Below, in pieces: positions 18,640 through 52,468 of a stretch of DNA of 64,000 nt. The position numbers and the translations under genes were made by a program. Positions within the stretch are counted from its first letter, which is position 1, and each line of letters opens with the position of its first letter. Origin of the DNA: a phage; the sequence record PV357172.2. One strand, given 5' to 3'. The notes under the pieces are model-generated. The model was not told where the DNA came from. It made no database searches and saw nothing but the letters and a program-made list of their open reading frames with translations.

Positions 18640-19338
18640 ATGAGGATTATTTCTAAGTTCGCCGATGTGTATGATTTGCAGAACAGTTTGTTCGACCCAG
18701 ATCGTGTGTGGGAACGTAAAACTGAGGAGTTGCTGGTTAAAGTAACCGATGATGCAGAAAAGAATATTGTGCATACTCGCCAGGTATTTCGTGATGGTTC
18801 GCTATCTTTCCGTGGTGATTTCGAATACTTCGTAAACCCCCTATTTGTTGCAGGTGAAGTTTACTGGTTACATGAGCTGTACTGCTGGCATCCAGCATTT
18901 AGCTTCAAAACGTTCGACCTCGACACTATGTTCGATAAAATGGAAGAGATGGGATTGCATGCTCGCTCTTACTTAATGGATAAGAGTCGTGGAGATGTTC
19001 GTGAAACAATGCGTGATCTGCTCGCTGAAGCAAAACCTAAAGCAGAACGTATCTTATCCGAACTGCGTGTACCGATTGCATATGTGAAAGGTATTAAAAA
19101 GAACGATAACGATGATGTTCGTAACTTCGTAATTCAGACTAACATTCGTTTCCATCAGTCCGGTATTCCGTGGCAGGAAATTGAAAGTAACTTATACCGT
19201 TTACACCAAGTTCTCGAACAGTATATCTTCGGTGTACTAGGAACTGGTGAGCCTGATATGATTAAAGTATCAGATAAAGACAGGTTAGCAGCGCATGGAT
19301 TTGATACAAAAACTTCTTTCAGGAATATGGCACGGTAA
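18640..19338 (+). CDS. hypothetical protein (232 aa)
   Basis: Track ORF with GAGG SD. Confidence 0.55.
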   Translation: MRIISKFADVYDLQNSLFDPDRVWERKTEELLVKVTDDAEKNIVHTRQVFRDGSLSFRGDFEYFVNPLFVAGEVYWLHELYCWHPAFSFKTFDLDTMFDKMEEMGLHARSYLMDKSRGDVRETMRDLLAEAKPKAERILSELRVPIAYVKGIKKNDNDDVRNFVIQTNIRFHQSGIPWQEIESNLYRLHQVLEQYIFGVLGTGEPDMIKVSDKDRLAAHGFDTKTSFRNMAR

Positions 19339-23967: not shown

Positions 23968-23994
23968 ACTTATATAAATTGATAGGAGGATTAA

Positions 23995-46155: not shown

Positions 46156-46638
46156 ATGGCAAATGATGTATTAGTACCAGATCTTATGTCCCCTGAAGGG
46201 ATGGATGTAATTGAAGCATATTTACAGTGTGGGAGTGATGTGCCTTCTGCCGCACGTAGTCTTGGAATGTCCGAAATTGCTTTTAGAGATATTATGAATC
46301 GTAGTGAAGTTAAGAACTACTTAAATGATATTTTTATGGAGAGTGGTTTCCGTAACAGAGATCGTTTATTTGGTGTTCTGGATGAAGTTATCAAGCGTAA
46401 ACTAGAGGAACTAGAAGAAACTGGCATGGGTTCTGACCAAGATATTATGGATATTCTCTGGAAAGCACATAAAATGAAAATGGAAGAAATGAAAATGATG
46501 GTAGAACTGGAGAAAGTTAAGGCAGCAGCCCGTACTCCAGCTAACCAGACCAACATCCAGAATAATATTATTGCTGGAGCTGGGGATCAAAACTACATGG
46601 ACTTAATTACTTCCCTAGCTACTGGAGGTAAGAAGTAA
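46156..46638 (+). CDS. terminase small subunit (160 aa)
   Basis: Directly upstream of and overlapping the large terminase gene. Confidence 0.55.
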
Positions 46639-47954
46639 TGGAAGTATCAAGACCTTACGTTAATACAGTAGATGTTATTGATTTCGGAATAGATAAACGT
46701 TTCTTTCGTCTACCTGTTTCGGGAATACTAGCACAAGAAGGTATTACACCTAATGGTCCTCAAATAGCGATTATTAATGCTCTAGAGGATCCTAGACATC
46801 GTTTTGTAACGGCGTGTGTATCACGCCGTGTAGGTAAATCCTTCATCGCATATACTCTTGGGTTCCTAAAATTGCTGGAACCTAATGTGAAGGTGTTAGT
46901 AGTTGCTCCTAACTATTCACTGGCCAACATCGGATGGTCTCAGATTCGTGGTCTTATTAAAAAATATGGCCTACAAACTGAACGTGAGAACGCTAAAGAT
47001 AAGGAAATTGAGTTAGCTAATGGTTCTCTGTTTAAACTAGCTTCCGCTGCTCAGGCTGACTCCGCAGTTGGACGTTCATATGATTTTATCATCTTTGACG
47101 AGGCGGCAATTTCCGATGTGGGTGGTGATGCCTTCAGGGTTCAGCTGCGTCCTACCCTAGATAAACCTAATTCTAAGGCTCTATTTATTTCCACCCCTCG
47201 TGGAGGTAACTGGTTTAAAGAGTTTTACGCCTACGGATTTGATGATACGTTGCCTAACTGGGTATCTATTCATGGTACATATCGTGATAACCCTCGTGCT
47301 GACCTGAATGATATAGAAGAAGCACGTCGTACGGTTAGTAAAAACTACTTCCGCCAGGAATATGAAGCTGACTTCTCTGTATTTGAAGGTCAGATTTTTG
47401 ATACTTTCAATGCTATTGACCATGTTAAAGACCTTAAGGGTATGCGTCATTTCTTTAAAGATGATGAAGCATTCGAAACGTTGCTTGGTATCGACGTTGG
47501 TTATCGTGATCCTACAGCAGTTCTTACTATTAAGTATCATTACGATACGGATACTTACTATGTATTAGAAGAGTACCAGCAGGCGGAGAAAACTACAGCT
47601 CAGCATGCTGCTTACATTCAGCACTGTATAGATCGTTATAAAGTTGATCGTATTTTTGTTGACTCCGCGGCAGCTCAGTTCCGTCAAGACTTAGCTTATG
47701 AGCATGAAATTGCATCAGCTCCAGCTAAAAAATCTGTCCTAGATGGCCTAGCATGCCTGCAAGCACTGTTCCAACAGGGTAAGATTATTGTAGATGCCTC
47801 ATGCTCCTCCTTAATTCATGCACTGCAGAACTATAAGTGGGATTTCCAAGAAGGTGAAGAAAAATTATCCCGTGAAAAACCACGTCATGATGCTAACTCT
47901 CACCTTTGTGATGCGCTGCGCTACGGAATTTACTCTATTTCCCGTGGTAAATAA
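46638..47954 (+). CDS. terminase large subunit (438 aa)
   Basis: Walker A-like VSRRVGKS and Walker B FIIFDEAA, with a C-terminal nuclease-type domain. Confidence 0.8.
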   Translation: MEVSRPYVNTVDVIDFGIDKRFFRLPVSGILAQEGITPNGPQIAIINALEDPRHRFVTACVSRRVGKSFIAYTLGFLKLLEPNVKVLVVAPNYSLANIGWSQIRGLIKKYGLQTERENAKDKEIELANGSLFKLASAAQADSAVGRSYDFIIFDEAAISDVGGDAFRVQLRPTLDKPNSKALFISTPRGGNWFKEFYAYGFDDTLPNWVSIHGTYRDNPRADLNDIEEARRTVSKNYFRQEYEADFSVFEGQIFDTFNAIDHVKDLKGMRHFFKDDEAFETLLGIDVGYRDPTAVLTIKYHYDTDTYYVLEEYQQAEKTTAQHAAYIQHCIDRYKVDRIFVDSAAAQFRQDLAYEHEIASAPAKKSVLDGLACLQALFQQGKIIVDASCSSLIHALQNYKWDFQEGEEKLSREKPRHDANSHLCDALRYGIYSISRGK

Positions 47955-48125
47955 ATAAGTATAGGATGGGATACTACTCAGTTGGTATCCCATTCCTGCA
48001 TTTTAAAATCCCCTTTACAAATTCGATATGATTATGTATACTATATTCATTGATCGGGAGAACTTCTCCCATAATAGAACGTAAACAAGAAAAATTAATG
48101 CTCTACATGAGGTGTAGGAGATTCT

Positions 48126-48764
48126 ATGGGTCGACAAAAGCTAACAATAAAAGATATAAATACTAGATTAGCTGATCGTGGAATCCAAATTGTCGGTGAA
48201 TATGTAAACCAGCGTACAAAAACAGTATTTAGATGCCAGAGAGCACACGTTTGGGAAGCAACACCACATTCTGTACTTCATATGAGGAGAGGTTGTCCAC
48301 ACTGCTCCAATAATACAATATCGTTAGATGAAGTTAGTAACAGAATATCTAATATAGGGTATACTCTGTTAAGCAGCTATACTAATGCTAAAACAAAACT
48401 ACATCTACGTTGCAATAATGGGCATGACTGTTTCATTACCCTAGATGGATTGACTCAAGGTAAAAGATGTCCTTATTGTTCTCTTAAATGGGAAAATGGC
48501 GGATTCCTCTATATCATGTCCTCCTGCAGAGGTACTAAAGTAGGCATAAGCTTATACCCTGAGAAGCGGCTGAACGAGGTTAAAAGAGAATCTGGATTTT
48601 CTGACATATACTTGTTCACCGTGTATTATCTGCCGGATAGAGAGACTGCTTTAGATTTAGAGAAGGAAGTTCACAGAAAATATTATAATAAAAACTGTGG
48701 GTTTTCTAATTTTACAGGAAGTACGGAATTTTTTAATGTTGCTCCTGAAGATGCTTTCAAATAG
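48126..48764 (+). CDS. T5orf172/GIY-YIG-like homing endonuclease with zinc-ribbon N-terminus
   Basis: CPHC and CPYC pairs then GGFLYIMSS...KVGIS...KRLNEV...TEFFNV. Confidence 0.6.
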   Translation: MGRQKLTIKDINTRLADRGIQIVGEYVNQRTKTVFRCQRAHVWEATPHSVLHMRRGCPHCSNNTISLDEVSNRISNIGYTLLSSYTNAKTKLHLRCNNGHDCFITLDGLTQGKRCPYCSLKWENGGFLYIMSSCRGTKVGISLYPEKRLNEVKRESGFSDIYLFTVYYLPDRETALDLEKEVHRKYYNKNCGFSNFTGSTEFFNVAPEDAFK

Positions 48765-48990
48765 GGAAGCATTCTACAAGAAATATGAGCATGAGTTAGT
48801 TAGGGACGTGGTAACATTGTGCCAGCACCATCACCAATTATTACATAAGGTTTACACAAAAGAACCTCCTTTATTTTCTGCTAATAAGCAAAAAGTGTGG
48901 GTTCAAAAGCAGAAAGACAAATTACAGAATCCTCAAGAAAAGACACAAGTCAAGACTGAAACAAAATCAGGATTCGCAAGGTTCTTATAA
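48697..48990 (+). CDS. hypothetical small ORF; possible frame-shifted C-terminal remnant of the endonuclease
   Basis: Overlaps the endonuclease 3' end in another frame; contains LCQHHHQLLH. Confidence 0.3.
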   Translation: MGFLILQEVRNFLMLLLKMLSNREAFYKKYEHELVRDVVTLCQHHHQLLHKVYTKEPPLFSANKQKVWVQKQKDKLQNPQEKTQVKTETKSGFARFL

Positions 48991-50090
48991 TGGGTTTTAA
49001 AAGCTGGATTACTGAAAAGCTAAATCCGGGTCAACGTATTATAAGAGACATGGAACCAGTTAGTCATCGCACTAACCGTAAGCCTTTTACCACTGGACAA
49101 GCCTACAGTAAAATTGAGATTCTCAATAGAACTGCTAATATGGTTATAGATAGTGCGGCGGAGTGTTCTTATACTACTCTCTTAAATGTACGACCTAATC
49201 CATTCATGGATATAAGCACATTCCGTAGACTTGTAGTCACTGACCTACTTTTTGAAGGTTGTGCATACATCTATTGGGATGGCACATCGCTTTACCATGT
49301 CCCTGCTGCACTGATGCAAGTAGAGGCAGATGCCAATAAGTTTATCAAAAAATTTATATTTAATAACCAGATAGACTATCGCGTAGATGAGATTATCTTT
49401 ATAAAAGATAACAGTTACGTGTGTGGCACAAATTCTCAAATTTCTGGACAATCTCGCGTTGCTACTGTTATTGACTCTCTTGAGAAGCGTTCTAAGATGC
49501 TTAACTTTAAAGAGAAATTCCTCGATAACGGAACTGTGATTGGTCTTATTCTTGAGACGGATGAAATCCTGAACAAGAAATTGCGTGAGCGTAAACAAGA
49601 AGAATTACAACTAGATTATAATCCTAGTACTGGTCAGTCCTCTGTCCTGATAGACTTTAAGGAAGACATCGAAGGATTTAATAAATCCATCTGTCTAGCC
49701 TTTGGTGTTCCGCAAGTGCTACTTGATGGCGGTAATAATGCGAACATTCGACCAAACATCGAATTGTTCTACTATATGACTATCATTCCTATGCTGAACA
49801 AGCTGACTAGTTCTCTTACTTTCTTTTTTGGTTATAAGATTACTCCTAATACTAAGGAAGTAGCTGCATTAACACCAGATAAAGAAGCTGAGGCTAAACA
49901 TTTAACCTCATTGGTTAATAATGGTATTATGACTGGTAACGAGGCTCGTTTAGAGCTGAACCTTGAACCTTTAGATGATGAGCAGATGAATAAGATTCGT
50001 ATTCCTGCTAACGTTGCTGGTTCTGCAACAGGTGTATCTGGTCAAGAAGGTGGTAGACCTCAAGGTTCCACCGAGGGAGATAAAGAATGA
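48990..50090 (+). CDS. portal protein (366 aa)
   Basis: Position between terminase and prohead protease. Confidence 0.65.
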   Translation: MGFKSWITEKLNPGQRIIRDMEPVSHRTNRKPFTTGQAYSKIEILNRTANMVIDSAAECSYTTLLNVRPNPFMDISTFRRLVVTDLLFEGCAYIYWDGTSLYHVPAALMQVEADANKFIKKFIFNNQIDYRVDEIIFIKDNSYVCGTNSQISGQSRVATVIDSLEKRSKMLNFKEKFLDNGTVIGLILETDEILNKKLRERKQEELQLDYNPSTGQSSVLIDFKEDIEGFNKSICLAFGVPQVLLDGGNNANIRPNIELFYYMTIIPMLNKLTSSLTFFFGYKITPNTKEVAALTPDKEAEAKHLTSLVNNGIMTGNEARLELNLEPLDDEQMNKIRIPANVAGSATGVSGQEGGRPQGSTEGDKE

Positions 50091-51234: not shown

Positions 51235-52468
51235 ATGACTATTGATATTAATAAGCTGAAAGAAGAACTTGGTCTGGGTGATCTGGCTAAATCTCTGGAA
51301 GGTCTGACCGCTGCTCAGAAAGCTCAGGAAGCTGAACGTATGCGTAAAGAGCAGGAAGAAAAAGAACTGGCTCGTATGAATGACTTGGTTTCTAAAGCAG
51401 TTGGCGAAGATCGTCAGAAACTGGAACAAGCTCTGGAACTGGTTAAGTCCCTGGATGAAAAATCTAAGAAGAGCGCAGAACTGTTTGCACAGACTGTAGA
51501 AAAGCAGCAGGAAACTATTGTTGGTCTCCAGGACGAAATCAAATCTCTGCTGGCAGCTCGTGAAGGGCGTTCCTTCGTCGGTGATAGTGTGGCTAAAGCA
51601 CTGTACGGTACTCAAGAAAACTTTGAAGACGAAGTGGAGAAACTGGTTCTTCTGTCCTACGTGATGGAAAAAGGTGTATTTGATACCGAACATGGTCAGA
51701 GACACTTGAAAGCTGTAAACCAGTCTTCTTCTGTAGAAGTTTCTAGTGAAAGCTATGAAACTATTTTCTCCCAGCGTATCATCCGTGACTGAGGTTAAAG
51801 GTGCTCTGACTGAAATCCACTTCAGTACTTACAAACTGGCTGCTAAGTCCTTCATTACTGATGAAACTGAAGAAGATGCAATCTTCTCCCTGCTGCCGCT
51901 GCTGCGTAAACGTCTGATTGAAGCACACGCTGTTTCTATCGAAGAAGCGTTTATGACTGGTGATGGTACTGGTAAACCTAAAGGTCTATTGACTCTTGCT
52001 AGCGAAGATGGTGCTAAAGTTACTACTGAAGCTAAAGCTGATGGTTCTGTTCTGGTAACTGCTAAGACTATCTCTAAACTGCGTCGTAAACTGGGCCGTC
52101 ATGGTTTGAAACTGTCCAAACTGGTACTGATTGTATCTATGGATGCTTACTACGATCTGCTGGAAGATGAAGAATGGCAGGATGTTGCTCAAGTTGGTAA
52201 TGATGCTGTTAAACTGCAGGGTCAGGTTGGTCGTATTTATGGTCTGCCGGTTGTAGTTTCTGAATACTTCCCAGCTAAAGCGGTTGATAAAGAGTTCGCA
52301 GTTATTGTTTATAAAGATAACTTCGTAATGCCACGTCAGCGTGCTGTTACTGTTGAACGTGAGCGTCAAGCTGGTAAACAGCGTGATGCATACTACGTTA
52401 CTCAGCGTGTTAACCTGCAACGTTACTTTAGTAATGGCGTTGTATCTGGTGCTTACGCTGCATCTTAA
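51235..52468 (+). CDS. major capsid protein precursor, reading frame interrupted by an apparent +1 frameshift
   Basis: Frame 1 (51235-51792) encodes a coiled-coil scaffold-like domain; frame 2 (from 51737) encodes the HK97-fold body with GDGTGKPKGLL; the frames overlap only at 51737-51789. Confidence 0.7.

What the first reader, a model, noticed from the sequence alone, without database searches (positions are those of the whole stretch)
48126..48990. Homing endonuclease inserted between terminase and portal genes, with an out-of-frame HNH-like tail
A T5orf172/GIY-YIG-like endonuclease with zinc-ribbon pairs occupies the junction between two essential packaging genes, a typical homing site. 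The downstream 97-aa ORF in another frame contains LCQHHHQLLH and may be a frame-shifted C-terminal fragment, suggesting a decaying or composite endonuclease.
Basis: partly seen in the sequence, partly recalled or inferred. Interest (0 to 1): 0.45.

Follow-up and report, generated by a model that had tools for sequence, protein, structure and literature searches.

The report
T5 homing endonuclease beside truncated nickase
This is the known, optional selfish-endonuclease gene that some T5-like phages carry after their terminase gene, and the "HNH-like tail" is the leftover end of the neighbouring T5 nicking-endonuclease gene, cut by a deletion that is probably a sequence defect.

Summary
The window is a T5-like phage (Demerecviridae), 92-97% identical in DNA to T5, EH1 and mar004NP2.

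- **ORF 48126-48764 (212 aa)** is the ortholog of T5 gene T5.154. It has two treble-clef zinc ribbons and a T5orf172 (GIY-YIG-type) nuclease domain.
- **It behaves like a free-standing homing endonuclease gene.** About 73-82 of roughly 420-440 close relatives carry it, and its left boundary is sharp (48050/48051). A diverged allele of the next gene travels with it. Paralogs sit at other loci.
- **The "out-of-frame HNH tail" is not part of it.** Bases 48754-48990 are codons 68-145 of the separate, conserved T5 nicking endonuclease (Swiss-Prot ENDON_BPT5, PDB 9QGV).
- **A 237-nt deletion at 48752/48754** removed the nickase start, its first zinc-ligand pair (C29/C32) and its catalytic His42. It also removed the last 15 codons of the homing endonuclease gene.
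- **Three further deletions lie within 3 kb.** Two are in the portal gene and one frameshifts the major capsid gene, so the sequence as written cannot be a viable phage.
- **The same junction occurs in one low-quality metagenome-assembled record,** RP5 (MZ956765.1).

Verdict: a known kind of element plus a truncation that is probably technical. Interest is low.

The parts
47964..47995 (+). Terminator-like hairpin just downstream of the TerL stop codon; conserved in phages with and without the homing endonuclease gene.
   Evidence: 9-nt perfect arms 47966-47974 / 47985-47993; conserved columns.
48014..48042 (+). Promoter-like site (TTTACA, 17 nt, TATACT). It is conserved in all relatives and ends 8 nt before the insertion point.
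   Evidence: 10 of 12 matches; alignment. The BF23 record annotates a promoter in this interval.
48051..48752 (+). Homing endonuclease cassette: its own leader and ribosome-binding site plus codons 1-209. The left boundary at 48050/48051 is sharp against relatives that lack the gene.
   Evidence: sequence identical up to ...TATATTCAT, then relatives without the gene continue straight into the nickase ribosome-binding site and ATG.
48056..48070 (+). Perfect 7-nt inverted repeat (GGGAGAA n TTCTCCC) at the start of the inserted segment. Function unknown; possibly an operator or hairpin.
   Evidence: present in all copies carrying the gene.
48126..48764 (+). T5orf172-family (GIY-YIG-type) endonuclease ORF, 212 aa, ortholog of T5.154. 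It has two zinc-ribbon DNA-binding modules (about residues 20-62 and 79-120) and a nuclease domain (126-210). The native last 15 residues are replaced by the three residues A-F-K.
48750..48756 (+). Deletion junction. 48752 aligns to T5 locus 2552 and 48754 to 2791, a net loss of 237 nt. The odd base G at 48753 creates an in-frame ATG (48751-48753) in front of nickase codon 68.
   Evidence: The junction string is absent from phage records and three contig collections but present in MAG RP5.
48754..48990 (+). 3' remnant (codons 68-145 and stop) of the T5 nicking endonuclease gene (ENDON_BPT5 / PF26848). It keeps N70, C90, H92-94 and H98. It lacks the start codon, ribosome-binding site, C29/C32 and H41/H42.
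48697..48990 (+). 48697-48753 is an out-of-frame reading of the endonuclease 3' end and the junction.
48990..50090 (+). Portal gene, 366 aa instead of 403-405 aa. It carries in-frame deletions of 60 nt (49175/49176) and 57 nt (49650/49651), found in no relative that spans them; RP5 has the first one as 59 nt.
51235..52468 (+). Major capsid gene broken by a deletion of about 143 nt at 51789/51791 (stop codon TGA at 51790-51792). It reads as 185-aa and 240-aa ORFs instead of one 458-aa protein.

Best explanation
**Shown**
- 48126-48764 is the ortholog of T5 gene T5.154. It is a free-standing endonuclease gene of the T5orf172 family (GIY-YIG clan) with two N-terminal treble-clef zinc-ribbon DNA-binding modules.
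- It is an optional cassette of about 0.7 kb. It sits between the conserved promoter downstream of TerL and the ribosome-binding site of the T5 nicking-endonuclease gene.

**Inferred mechanism**
- In a mixed infection the enzyme cuts genomes that lack the gene, in or near the 5' ~270-290 nt of their nickase gene.
- Recombinational repair then copies the gene together with a diverged, cleavage-resistant nickase 5' allele.

**Shown**
- The 'HNH-like tail' is codons 68-145 of that separate nickase gene.
- A 237-nt deletion removed the last 15 codons of the homing endonuclease gene. It also removed the nickase ribosome-binding site, start codon, first zinc-ligand pair (C29/C32) and catalytic His42.
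- As written, the nickase is null and the homing endonuclease gene has an altered C-terminus.

**Inferred, about 60%**
- This deletion is a technical defect of a metagenome-type assembly or consensus, not a property of a viable phage.
- It is one of four deletions within 3 kb. The others shorten the portal gene twice and frameshift the major capsid gene.
For: **Identity of the homing endonuclease gene**
- Pfam and PHROG matches.
- 93-94% amino-acid identity to T5 and EH1 orthologs.
- Glutamate E201 is invariant.

**Mobility**
- 73 records cover the gene; most close relatives cover 68% of the query, spanning 1777 nt, and lack it.
- 6 of 8 contigs with an identical TerL lack it.
- The left boundary is sharp.
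- The first ~270-290 nt of the nickase gene is 65-80% identical between phages with and without the gene, and 98-100% within each group. Flanks are 95-100% identical.
- Synonymous divergence of the gene (0.13-0.15) is below that of the adjacent TerL (0.29-0.44) against T5, EH1 and L009. pN/pS is 0.14-0.21.
- A 52% homolog sits at the same locus and a 38% homolog at another locus in other T5-like phages. There are many paralogs across phage groups.
- PMC10448857 describes T5orf172 homing endonuclease genes with this zinc-finger architecture, 35% of them near terminase. PMC10194208 notes that this gene is absent between TerL and the nickase in phage Key.

**Identity of the nickase**
- The remnant is 100% identical to EH1 residues 68-145.
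- T5.153 equals PDB 9QGV/9QGX 'Nicking endonuclease', deposited as H42Q and H42A variants, and Swiss-Prot ENDON_BPT5.

**Deletion cluster**
-.
- Tail genes 52.5-62 kb are intact.
- The junction is absent from all phage records, IMG/VR, genome and metagenome contigs.
- MAG RP5 shares junction 1 exactly and junction 2 within 1 nt. It has 35 Ns in 11 kb, and its contig ends at window-equivalent 49459.
Against: - No cleavage or homing experiment exists for T5.154 that I could find, so mobility is comparative inference.
- pN/pS of 0.14-0.21 is also compatible with a domesticated function.
- The technical-artefact reading is not proven. The same junction occurs in two records that are only 93.4% identical overall, which a one-off assembly error cannot explain.
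- Three of the four deletions in the window are multiples of 3.
- Viable T5 mutants without nicks are reported (PMC3517423), so loss of the nickase alone could be tolerated.
- I could not find the window's source record or its reads.
Confidence: 0.75

Rival explanations
1. The 237-nt deletion is real and marks a circulating T5-like lineage that has lost its nicking endonuclease. It might be a by-product of imprecise repair next to the homing endonuclease gene. Virions would carry un-nicked DNA. The portal and capsid deletions would then be separate artefacts or tolerated variants.
For: - An identical junction string occurs in an independent GenBank record (RP5, MZ956765.1) that differs from the window by 6.6% overall and by 3 residues in the endonuclease.
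- Viable T5 mutants lacking nicks are reported (PMC3517423).
- The junction base G creates an in-frame ATG before codon 68 (sequence).
- AGCGCAGG nick-consensus sites are kept on the + strand.
Against: - None of the more than 400 isolate genomes has the junction, nor do IMG/VR, JGI metagenome or GTDB contigs.
- The same sequence carries a frameshifted major capsid gene and a portal lacking 39 residues, which no propagating phage could carry.
- RP5 is a low-quality MAG with Ns and a contig end inside this region.
- The block 47.9-49.3 kb is 98-100% conserved among all phages carrying the gene. Local similarity between the window and RP5 therefore says little about shared descent.
Confidence: 0.2
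2. The T5orf172 gene is not a selfish homing gene. It is a domesticated accessory factor of the packaging module, for example a regulator or a nuclease acting with terminase and nickase, and it has been lost in most lineages.
For: - Purifying selection, with pN/pS 0.14-0.21.
- A constant position next to the terminase and nickase genes in divergent T5-like phages.
- T5orf172/CapR domains have been co-opted as regulators and anti-satellite nucleases in ICP1 and PLE (PMC10448857).
Against: - The distribution is patchy among near-identical backbones. TerL protein is identical in contigs with and without the gene.
- The boundary is sharp and the flanking allele is linked to presence of the gene.
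- Synonymous divergence is lower than in the flank.
- Paralogs sit at unrelated loci.
- A relative (mar004NP2) annotates the gene as two split ORFs.
- Multiple independent losses at exactly the same boundaries are less parsimonious than gain by homing.
Confidence: 0.1
3. One reading: one composite endonuclease whose HNH-type C-terminal part has been thrown out of frame by a frameshift.
For: The two ORFs overlap and both have nuclease-like motifs.
Against: - In all relatives the two are separate genes with their own ribosome-binding sites and start codons, in different frames, overlapping by 11 nt.
- The nickase occurs alone in most phages.
- The discontinuity is a 237-nt deletion, not a frameshift.
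Confidence: 0.02

Closest known systems
Phage T5 gene T5.154 (YP_006982.1, 'endonuclease') and its 224-aa orthologs in EH1, IrisVonRoten, AKFV33 and others, annotated as GIY-YIG / T5orf172 / putative homing endonuclease
   Same: Same locus, same orientation, and 93-94% amino-acid identity over residues 1-209. Same two zinc ribbons and T5orf172 domain.
   Different: The window copy lacks the last 15 residues (IVIFL.SFGLE.YGH) and ends in A-F-K because of the deletion. Only MAG RP5 shares this end.
T5orf172-family homing endonuclease genes with CapR/DUF723/DUF4379 zinc-finger repeats (Barth et al. 2023, PMC10448857)
   Same: Same domain architecture, position next to terminase and other essential genes, variable presence between related phages, and location at a boundary of sequence exchange.
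   Different: Homing and the cleavage site have not been shown for this T5 member. The target is only inferred here from the dimorphic nickase 5' region.
T5 nicking endonuclease (T5.153, Swiss-Prot ENDON_BPT5, Pfam PF26848, PDB 9QGV/9QGX)
   Same: Window 48754-48990 encodes residues 68-145, 97-100% identical to T5 and EH1, including N70 and C90-x2-H93...H98.
   Different: Residues 1-67 are missing, along with the ribosome-binding site and start codon. That removes the C29-x2-C32 pair and H41/H42; H42 is the residue mutated in the PDB entries. The window copy cannot be a nuclease.
Terminase-associated HNH proteins such as HK97 gp74 (Kala et al. 2014, as summarised in PMC13595911)
   Same: A small HNH-type protein encoded next to the terminase genes, as the T5 nickase is in relatives.
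   Different: A sequence or fold relationship to gp74 was not tested here. The T5 protein is named for introducing site-specific nicks, and nick-less T5 mutants are reported viable, whereas gp74 is required for cos cleavage.
Free-standing GIY-YIG homing endonucleases of T4 (Seg proteins) and I-TevI
   Different: The DNA-binding part is N-terminal tandem zinc ribbons rather than a C-terminal helix-turn-helix or NUMOD module. Sequence similarity is only at family-clan level.

Membership tests
T5orf172 / GIY-YIG nuclease superfamily | Profile match above the curated threshold | tested here: met
   PF10544 scores 29.7 bits (cut-off 20) and PF13455 scores 36.4 bits (cut-off 22.3) over residues 126-211.
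T5orf172 / GIY-YIG nuclease superfamily | GIY-YIG alpha/beta fold | tested here: met
T5orf172 / GIY-YIG nuclease superfamily | Conserved catalytic glutamate | tested here: met
   E201 (in T-E-F-F) is invariant in the 8-sequence alignment. Its catalytic role is inferred from the family description in PMC10448857.
T5orf172 / GIY-YIG nuclease superfamily | Nuclease activity | not testable with these tools
   This needs purified protein. The loss of the last 15 residues may also affect activity.
Free-standing homing endonuclease gene | Sporadic presence among closely related genomes at a fixed site with sharp boundaries | tested here: met
Free-standing homing endonuclease gene | Linked diverged flank (co-conversion or self-immunity tract) | tested here: met
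   The nickase 5' ~270-290 nt is 65-80% identical between the two groups and 98-100% within each group.
Free-standing homing endonuclease gene | Site-specific cleavage of the allele lacking the gene, and biased inheritance in co-infection | not testable with these tools
   I found no experimental report.
T5 nicking endonuclease (ENDON_BPT5 / PF26848) | Sequence homology | tested here: met
   Residues 68-145 are 100% identical to EH1 and 97% to T5. T5.153 matches PDB 9QGV at 7e-96.
T5 nicking endonuclease (ENDON_BPT5 / PF26848) | Complete 145-aa protein with catalytic H42, the first Cys pair, and its own start codon | tested here: not met
   Codons 1-67 and the ribosome-binding site are deleted. 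The window holds a remnant, not a member gene.
HNH / His-Me finger nuclease | Beta-beta-alpha-metal motif with the general-base His on the hairpin | tested here: not met
   Only the helix half (C90, H93/H94, H98) and N70 remain. No HNH Pfam model matches even the full-length T5 protein, so HNH membership of the intact protein rests on motif reading and on record annotations.
HK97 gp74-type terminase-associated HNH packaging factor | Homology to gp74, or a requirement for terminase cleavage | not tested
   Only the gene position next to terminase is shared.

The most novel reading that the evidence does not exclude
The deletion shared by this window and MAG RP5 is real. It would define a natural T5-like lineage in which a break next to the homing endonuclease gene was repaired imprecisely. 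That repair would have destroyed the conserved nicking endonuclease, giving un-nicked virion DNA, and created a new ATG that could express only the C-terminal 78 residues of the nickase.
Probability: 0.12. Interest if true: 0.4.

Novelty: already known. Interest (0 to 1): 0.15.

Why it matters
It matters little beyond annotation hygiene.

- **The gene is already annotated.** It appears in T5 and dozens of relatives, and its family has been described as homing endonuclease genes clustered near terminase genes.
- **A cautionary point.** An apparent "decaying composite nuclease" here comes from a deletion that also breaks the portal and capsid genes and recurs only in a low-quality MAG. Gene-decay stories read from metagenome-derived phage sequences need read-level support.
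- **One useful by-product.** The nickase gene has two sharply distinct 5' alleles, linked to presence or absence of the homing endonuclease gene. This predicts where the T5.154 enzyme cuts and makes a T5 x BF23 homing experiment straightforward.

Tried and rejected
- **Looking for the source genome.** Exact look-ups of the window's endonuclease, portal, receptor-binding protein, decoration protein, 84-aa remnant and capsid fragment all returned nothing. A window-specific 34-mer found only other relatives in IMG/VR, all undeleted. The origin of the window stays unknown.
- **Junction strings.**
  - Junction 1 is absent from the phage records, IMG/VR, GTDB genomes and JGI metagenomes.
  - Junctions 2 and 3 are absent from IMG/VR.
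- **Repeat-mediated deletion or translocation.**
  - The deleted segments are not elsewhere in the window.
  - The junctions have at most 1-3 nt of microhomology.
  - I noticed TCTAGA and CTGCAG sites at some deletion ends, but simple loss of restriction fragments does not reproduce the junctions, so I dropped the idea.
- **Protein search with the 78-aa remnant.** It returned only a 46-aa fragment, although the full-length nickase clusters are in the collection. I did not run a structure prediction of the full nickase for that reason.
- **Pfam and NCBIfam scans of the full T5 nickase** gave no family in the local libraries. Identification came from the PDB and cluster names instead.
- **Literature.**
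  - I did not find the paper behind PDB 9QGV/9QGX or behind MZ956765.
  - MZ956765 is not in the annotated collections.
- **Paralogs of the endonuclease gene in the window:** none.
- **In-silico mutated sequence.** Rejected. TerL differs from relatives only at synonymous sites: 88 synonymous and 0 non-synonymous changes against T5.

Full report
**What the window is.** The region is the packaging and head module of a T5-like phage (Demerecviridae).
- A 1.6-kb query around the finding matches 443 phage records. T5, EH1, SPLA5b and mar004NP2 match at 96.5-97.6% identity. A 20-kb query matches the same group at 92-93%.
- The gene order is small terminase (46156-46638), large terminase TerL (46638-47954), the finding, portal (48990-50090), decoration protein, protease and major capsid protein.
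- TerL differs from relatives only at synonymous sites: 88 synonymous and 0 non-synonymous changes against T5. This is naturally evolved sequence, not scrambled sequence.

**Check of the observation.**
- Both ORFs exist as described.
- The 212-aa ORF passes the Pfam thresholds for T5orf172, MUG113, CapR and the DUF4379 treble-clef zinc finger. It matches PHROG 681 'endonuclease' at 2.4e-54.
- Two ligand sets, C37/H41...C57/C60 and C96/H100...C115/C118, are invariant in homologs, as is E201 in the T-E-F-F motif.
- An AlphaFold model (mean pLDDT 80.8) shows two repeated helix-plus-three-strand modules followed by an alpha/beta domain.

**What the 'tail' really is.**
- Every isolate and contig I compared has about 237 more bases here. 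In T5 coordinates (locus L001), window 48752 aligns to 2552 and 48754 to 2791. The same holds for EH1, mar004NP2, eight contigs with identical TerL, and three IMG/VR contigs. Only the MAG record RP5, described below, shares the gap.
- In relatives the interval holds two separate genes in different frames that overlap by 11 nt: the 224-aa endonuclease and a 145-aa protein.
- Window 48754-48990 encodes residues 68-145 of that second protein, 100% identical to EH1.
- The second protein is the T5 nicking endonuclease:
  - T5.153 matches PDB 9QGV and 9QGX, both named 'Nicking endonuclease', at E about 1e-95. Those entries carry H42Q and H42A substitutions.
  - It is Swiss-Prot ENDON_BPT5.
  - It carries Pfam PF26848 in precomputed annotation.
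- The motif read by the first stage (LCQHHHQLLH) is the C90-x2-H93...H98 half of its metal site.
- The deleted part held the ribosome-binding site, the start codon, C29-x2-C32 and H41/H42. The remnant cannot be a nuclease.
- The first 19 codons of the '97-aa ORF' are an out-of-frame reading of the endonuclease 3' end and the junction.
- The endonuclease itself lost its last 15 residues and ends in A-F-K.
- The 'frame-shifted C-terminal fragment of a composite endonuclease' reading is rejected.

**Is the T5orf172 gene a homing-type element?** The comparative evidence says yes.
- **Patchy presence.**
  - Only 73 records cover at least 80% of a 2.2-kb query.
  - Most close relatives cover 68% of it. 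They span 1777 nt, which is what TerL, 114 nt, nickase and portal without the gene would give.
  - A protein-level search finds 82 records with an ortholog at 80% identity or more.
  - Among eight contigs whose TerL protein is identical to the window's, two carry the gene and six do not.
- **Sharp left boundary.** Sequences with and without the gene are identical through a terminator-like hairpin (47964-47995) and a promoter-like TTTACA-17-TATACT (48014-48042), up to 48050. Genomes lacking the gene then run straight into the nickase ribosome-binding site and ATG.
- **Linked diverged flank.** The first ~270-290 nt of the nickase gene exists in two forms, 65-80% identical between the two groups and 98-100% identical within each. 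TerL 3', the intergenic region, the nickase 3' end and the portal gene are 95-100% identical across groups. This is the pattern expected for a co-conversion or self-immunity tract. It suggests the cleavage site lies in the nickase 5' region of genomes lacking the gene.
- **Younger than the backbone.** Synonymous divergence of the gene between the window and T5, EH1 or L009 (0.13-0.15) is half or less that of the adjacent TerL (0.29-0.44). pN/pS is 0.14-0.21, so it is a maintained ORF rather than an old pseudogene.
- **Family members elsewhere.** A 52% homolog occupies the same slot in a more distant T5-like phage. A 38% homolog lies next to an endolysin gene elsewhere in other T5-like genomes. 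More distant paralogs occur in many phage groups.
- **Literature.**
  - Barth et al. describe T5orf172 homing endonuclease genes with tandem CapR/DUF723/DUF4379 zinc fingers, variable presence, and enrichment near terminase at 35% of neighbourhoods (PMC10448857).
- Cleavage and biased inheritance have not been shown for this gene as far as I could find.

**Is the deletion biological?** It is one of four deletions in a 3-kb stretch:

| Position in window | Net loss | Gene affected | Effect |
|---|---|---|---|
| 48752/48754 | 237 nt | homing endonuclease 3' end and nickase 5' end | nickase null; endonuclease loses its last 15 residues |
| 49175/49176 | 60 nt | portal | in-frame; residues about 63-82 lost |
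| 49650/49651 | 57 nt | portal | in-frame; residues about 241-259 lost |
| 51789/51791 | about 143 nt | major capsid | frameshift with a stop at 51790-51792 |

- The capsid gene reads as 185-aa and 240-aa ORFs instead of one 458-aa protein.
- All relatives that span these positions have a 403-405-aa portal and a 458-aa capsid protein. The tail genes downstream in the window are intact.
- The deleted DNA is not elsewhere in the window, and the junctions show at most 1-3 nt of microhomology.
- A phage with this capsid gene cannot propagate, so the sequence as written is either a defective molecule or a technical product.
- Junction 1 is absent from all 88 matching phage records and from IMG/VR, GTDB genomes and JGI metagenomes.
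- It is present, base for base, in one GenBank record: 'MAG: Enterobacteria phage RP5' (MZ956765.1, 65,917 bp). I found it because its endonuclease is also 212 aa and ends in PEDAFK.
  - RP5 also has the junction-2 deletion, but of 59 rather than 60 nt.
  - It carries 35 Ns in the 11 kb examined.
  - Its contig ends at window-equivalent 49459, inside this troubled region.
  - It is only 93.4% identical to the window overall.
- Two divergent genomes sharing lethal-looking deletions is hard to explain by descent. A shared pipeline effect explains it more easily, for example a consensus that drops uncovered or filtered stretches. I put about 60% on a technical origin and about 20-25% on a real deletion at junction 1. 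The rest is undecided.
- Loss of the nickase alone could be tolerated, since viable nick-less T5 mutants are reported (PMC3517423).

**How it most likely works.**
- **Shown:** gene identities, domain content, insertion boundaries, allele dimorphism and the deletion.
- **Inferred:** the promoter at 48014-48042 drives the homing endonuclease gene, then the nickase and portal genes. In mixed infections the zinc-ribbon modules position the GIY-YIG-type domain on the nickase 5' region of genomes lacking the gene. The break is repaired from the genome carrying the gene, copying the cassette and its resistant flank.
- **In this window:** the nickase is null. The odd G at 48753 happens to create an in-frame ATG before codon 68, but there is no Shine-Dalgarno sequence upstream of it, so I expect little or no product.

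**Novelty and score.** The gene, its family behaviour and its position are already annotated and described. The truncated nickase is most likely not biology. The one mildly useful result is the dimorphic nickase 5' allele as a predicted target and immunity tract. Interest is 0.15.

Noticed in passing
window 48990-50090: The portal ORF is 366 aa instead of 403-405 aa. It has two in-frame deletions, 60 nt at 49175/49176 and 57 nt at 49650/49651, absent from every relative that spans them. RP5 has the first one as 59 nt.
   Followed up: yes
window 51235-52468: The major capsid gene is split into a 185-aa ORF and a 240-aa ORF in another frame. The cause is a deletion of about 143 nt at 51789/51791 with a stop (TGA) at 51790-51792. 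Relatives have a 458-aa protein.
   Followed up: yes
window 48751-48753: The unaligned junction base G (relatives would give ATC) creates an in-frame ATG directly before nickase codon L68. No Shine-Dalgarno sequence is evident upstream. The same base is present in MAG RP5.
   Followed up: partly
L001 2580-2880 (T5) against L005/L006 and others; window 48754 to about 48845: The nicking-endonuclease gene has two allelic 5' forms. They are 65-80% identical between phages with and without the homing endonuclease gene and 98-100% identical within each group, with near-identical flanks. This is a candidate target and immunity tract.
   Followed up: partly
window 5153, 20209, 33532, 62170 (+ strand): There are four exact AGCGCAGG sites on the + strand, matching the T5 major-nick consensus R/GCGCRGG quoted in PMC3517423. 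The degenerate motif occurs 6 times on both strands against 2.05 expected. The nickase substrates appear retained although the nickase gene is truncated.
   Followed up: no
window 48056-48070: A perfect inverted repeat GGGAGAA-n-TTCTCCC lies 6 nt inside the left end of the inserted cassette and is conserved in all copies carrying the gene. It may be an operator or RNA hairpin.
   Followed up: no
L003 9420-10093 (mar004NP2, NC_048205.1): The ortholog is annotated as two ORFs (66 aa and 172 aa) in mar004NP2, while the close relative SPLA5b has the intact 224-aa gene. This is either a decaying copy or a sequencing error.
   Followed up: no
window 19329-19336 and 23983-23990: Relative to mar004NP2 the window lacks a 537-nt segment holding the HNH endonuclease F-TflVI and a 418-nt segment holding a small hypothetical gene. 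These are ordinary presence/absence differences of other mobile or accessory genes.
   Followed up: no
L021 (MZ956765.1, MAG Enterobacteria phage RP5): This public MAG shares the window's deletion junctions, has scattered Ns, and ends inside the portal gene. The window's own proteins are in none of the searchable collections.
   Followed up: partly
protein search: A search with the 78-aa nickase remnant returned only one 46-aa fragment, although clusters of full-length nickases (48 and 133 members) are in the same collection. The word-index search seems not to reach this family.
   Followed up: no
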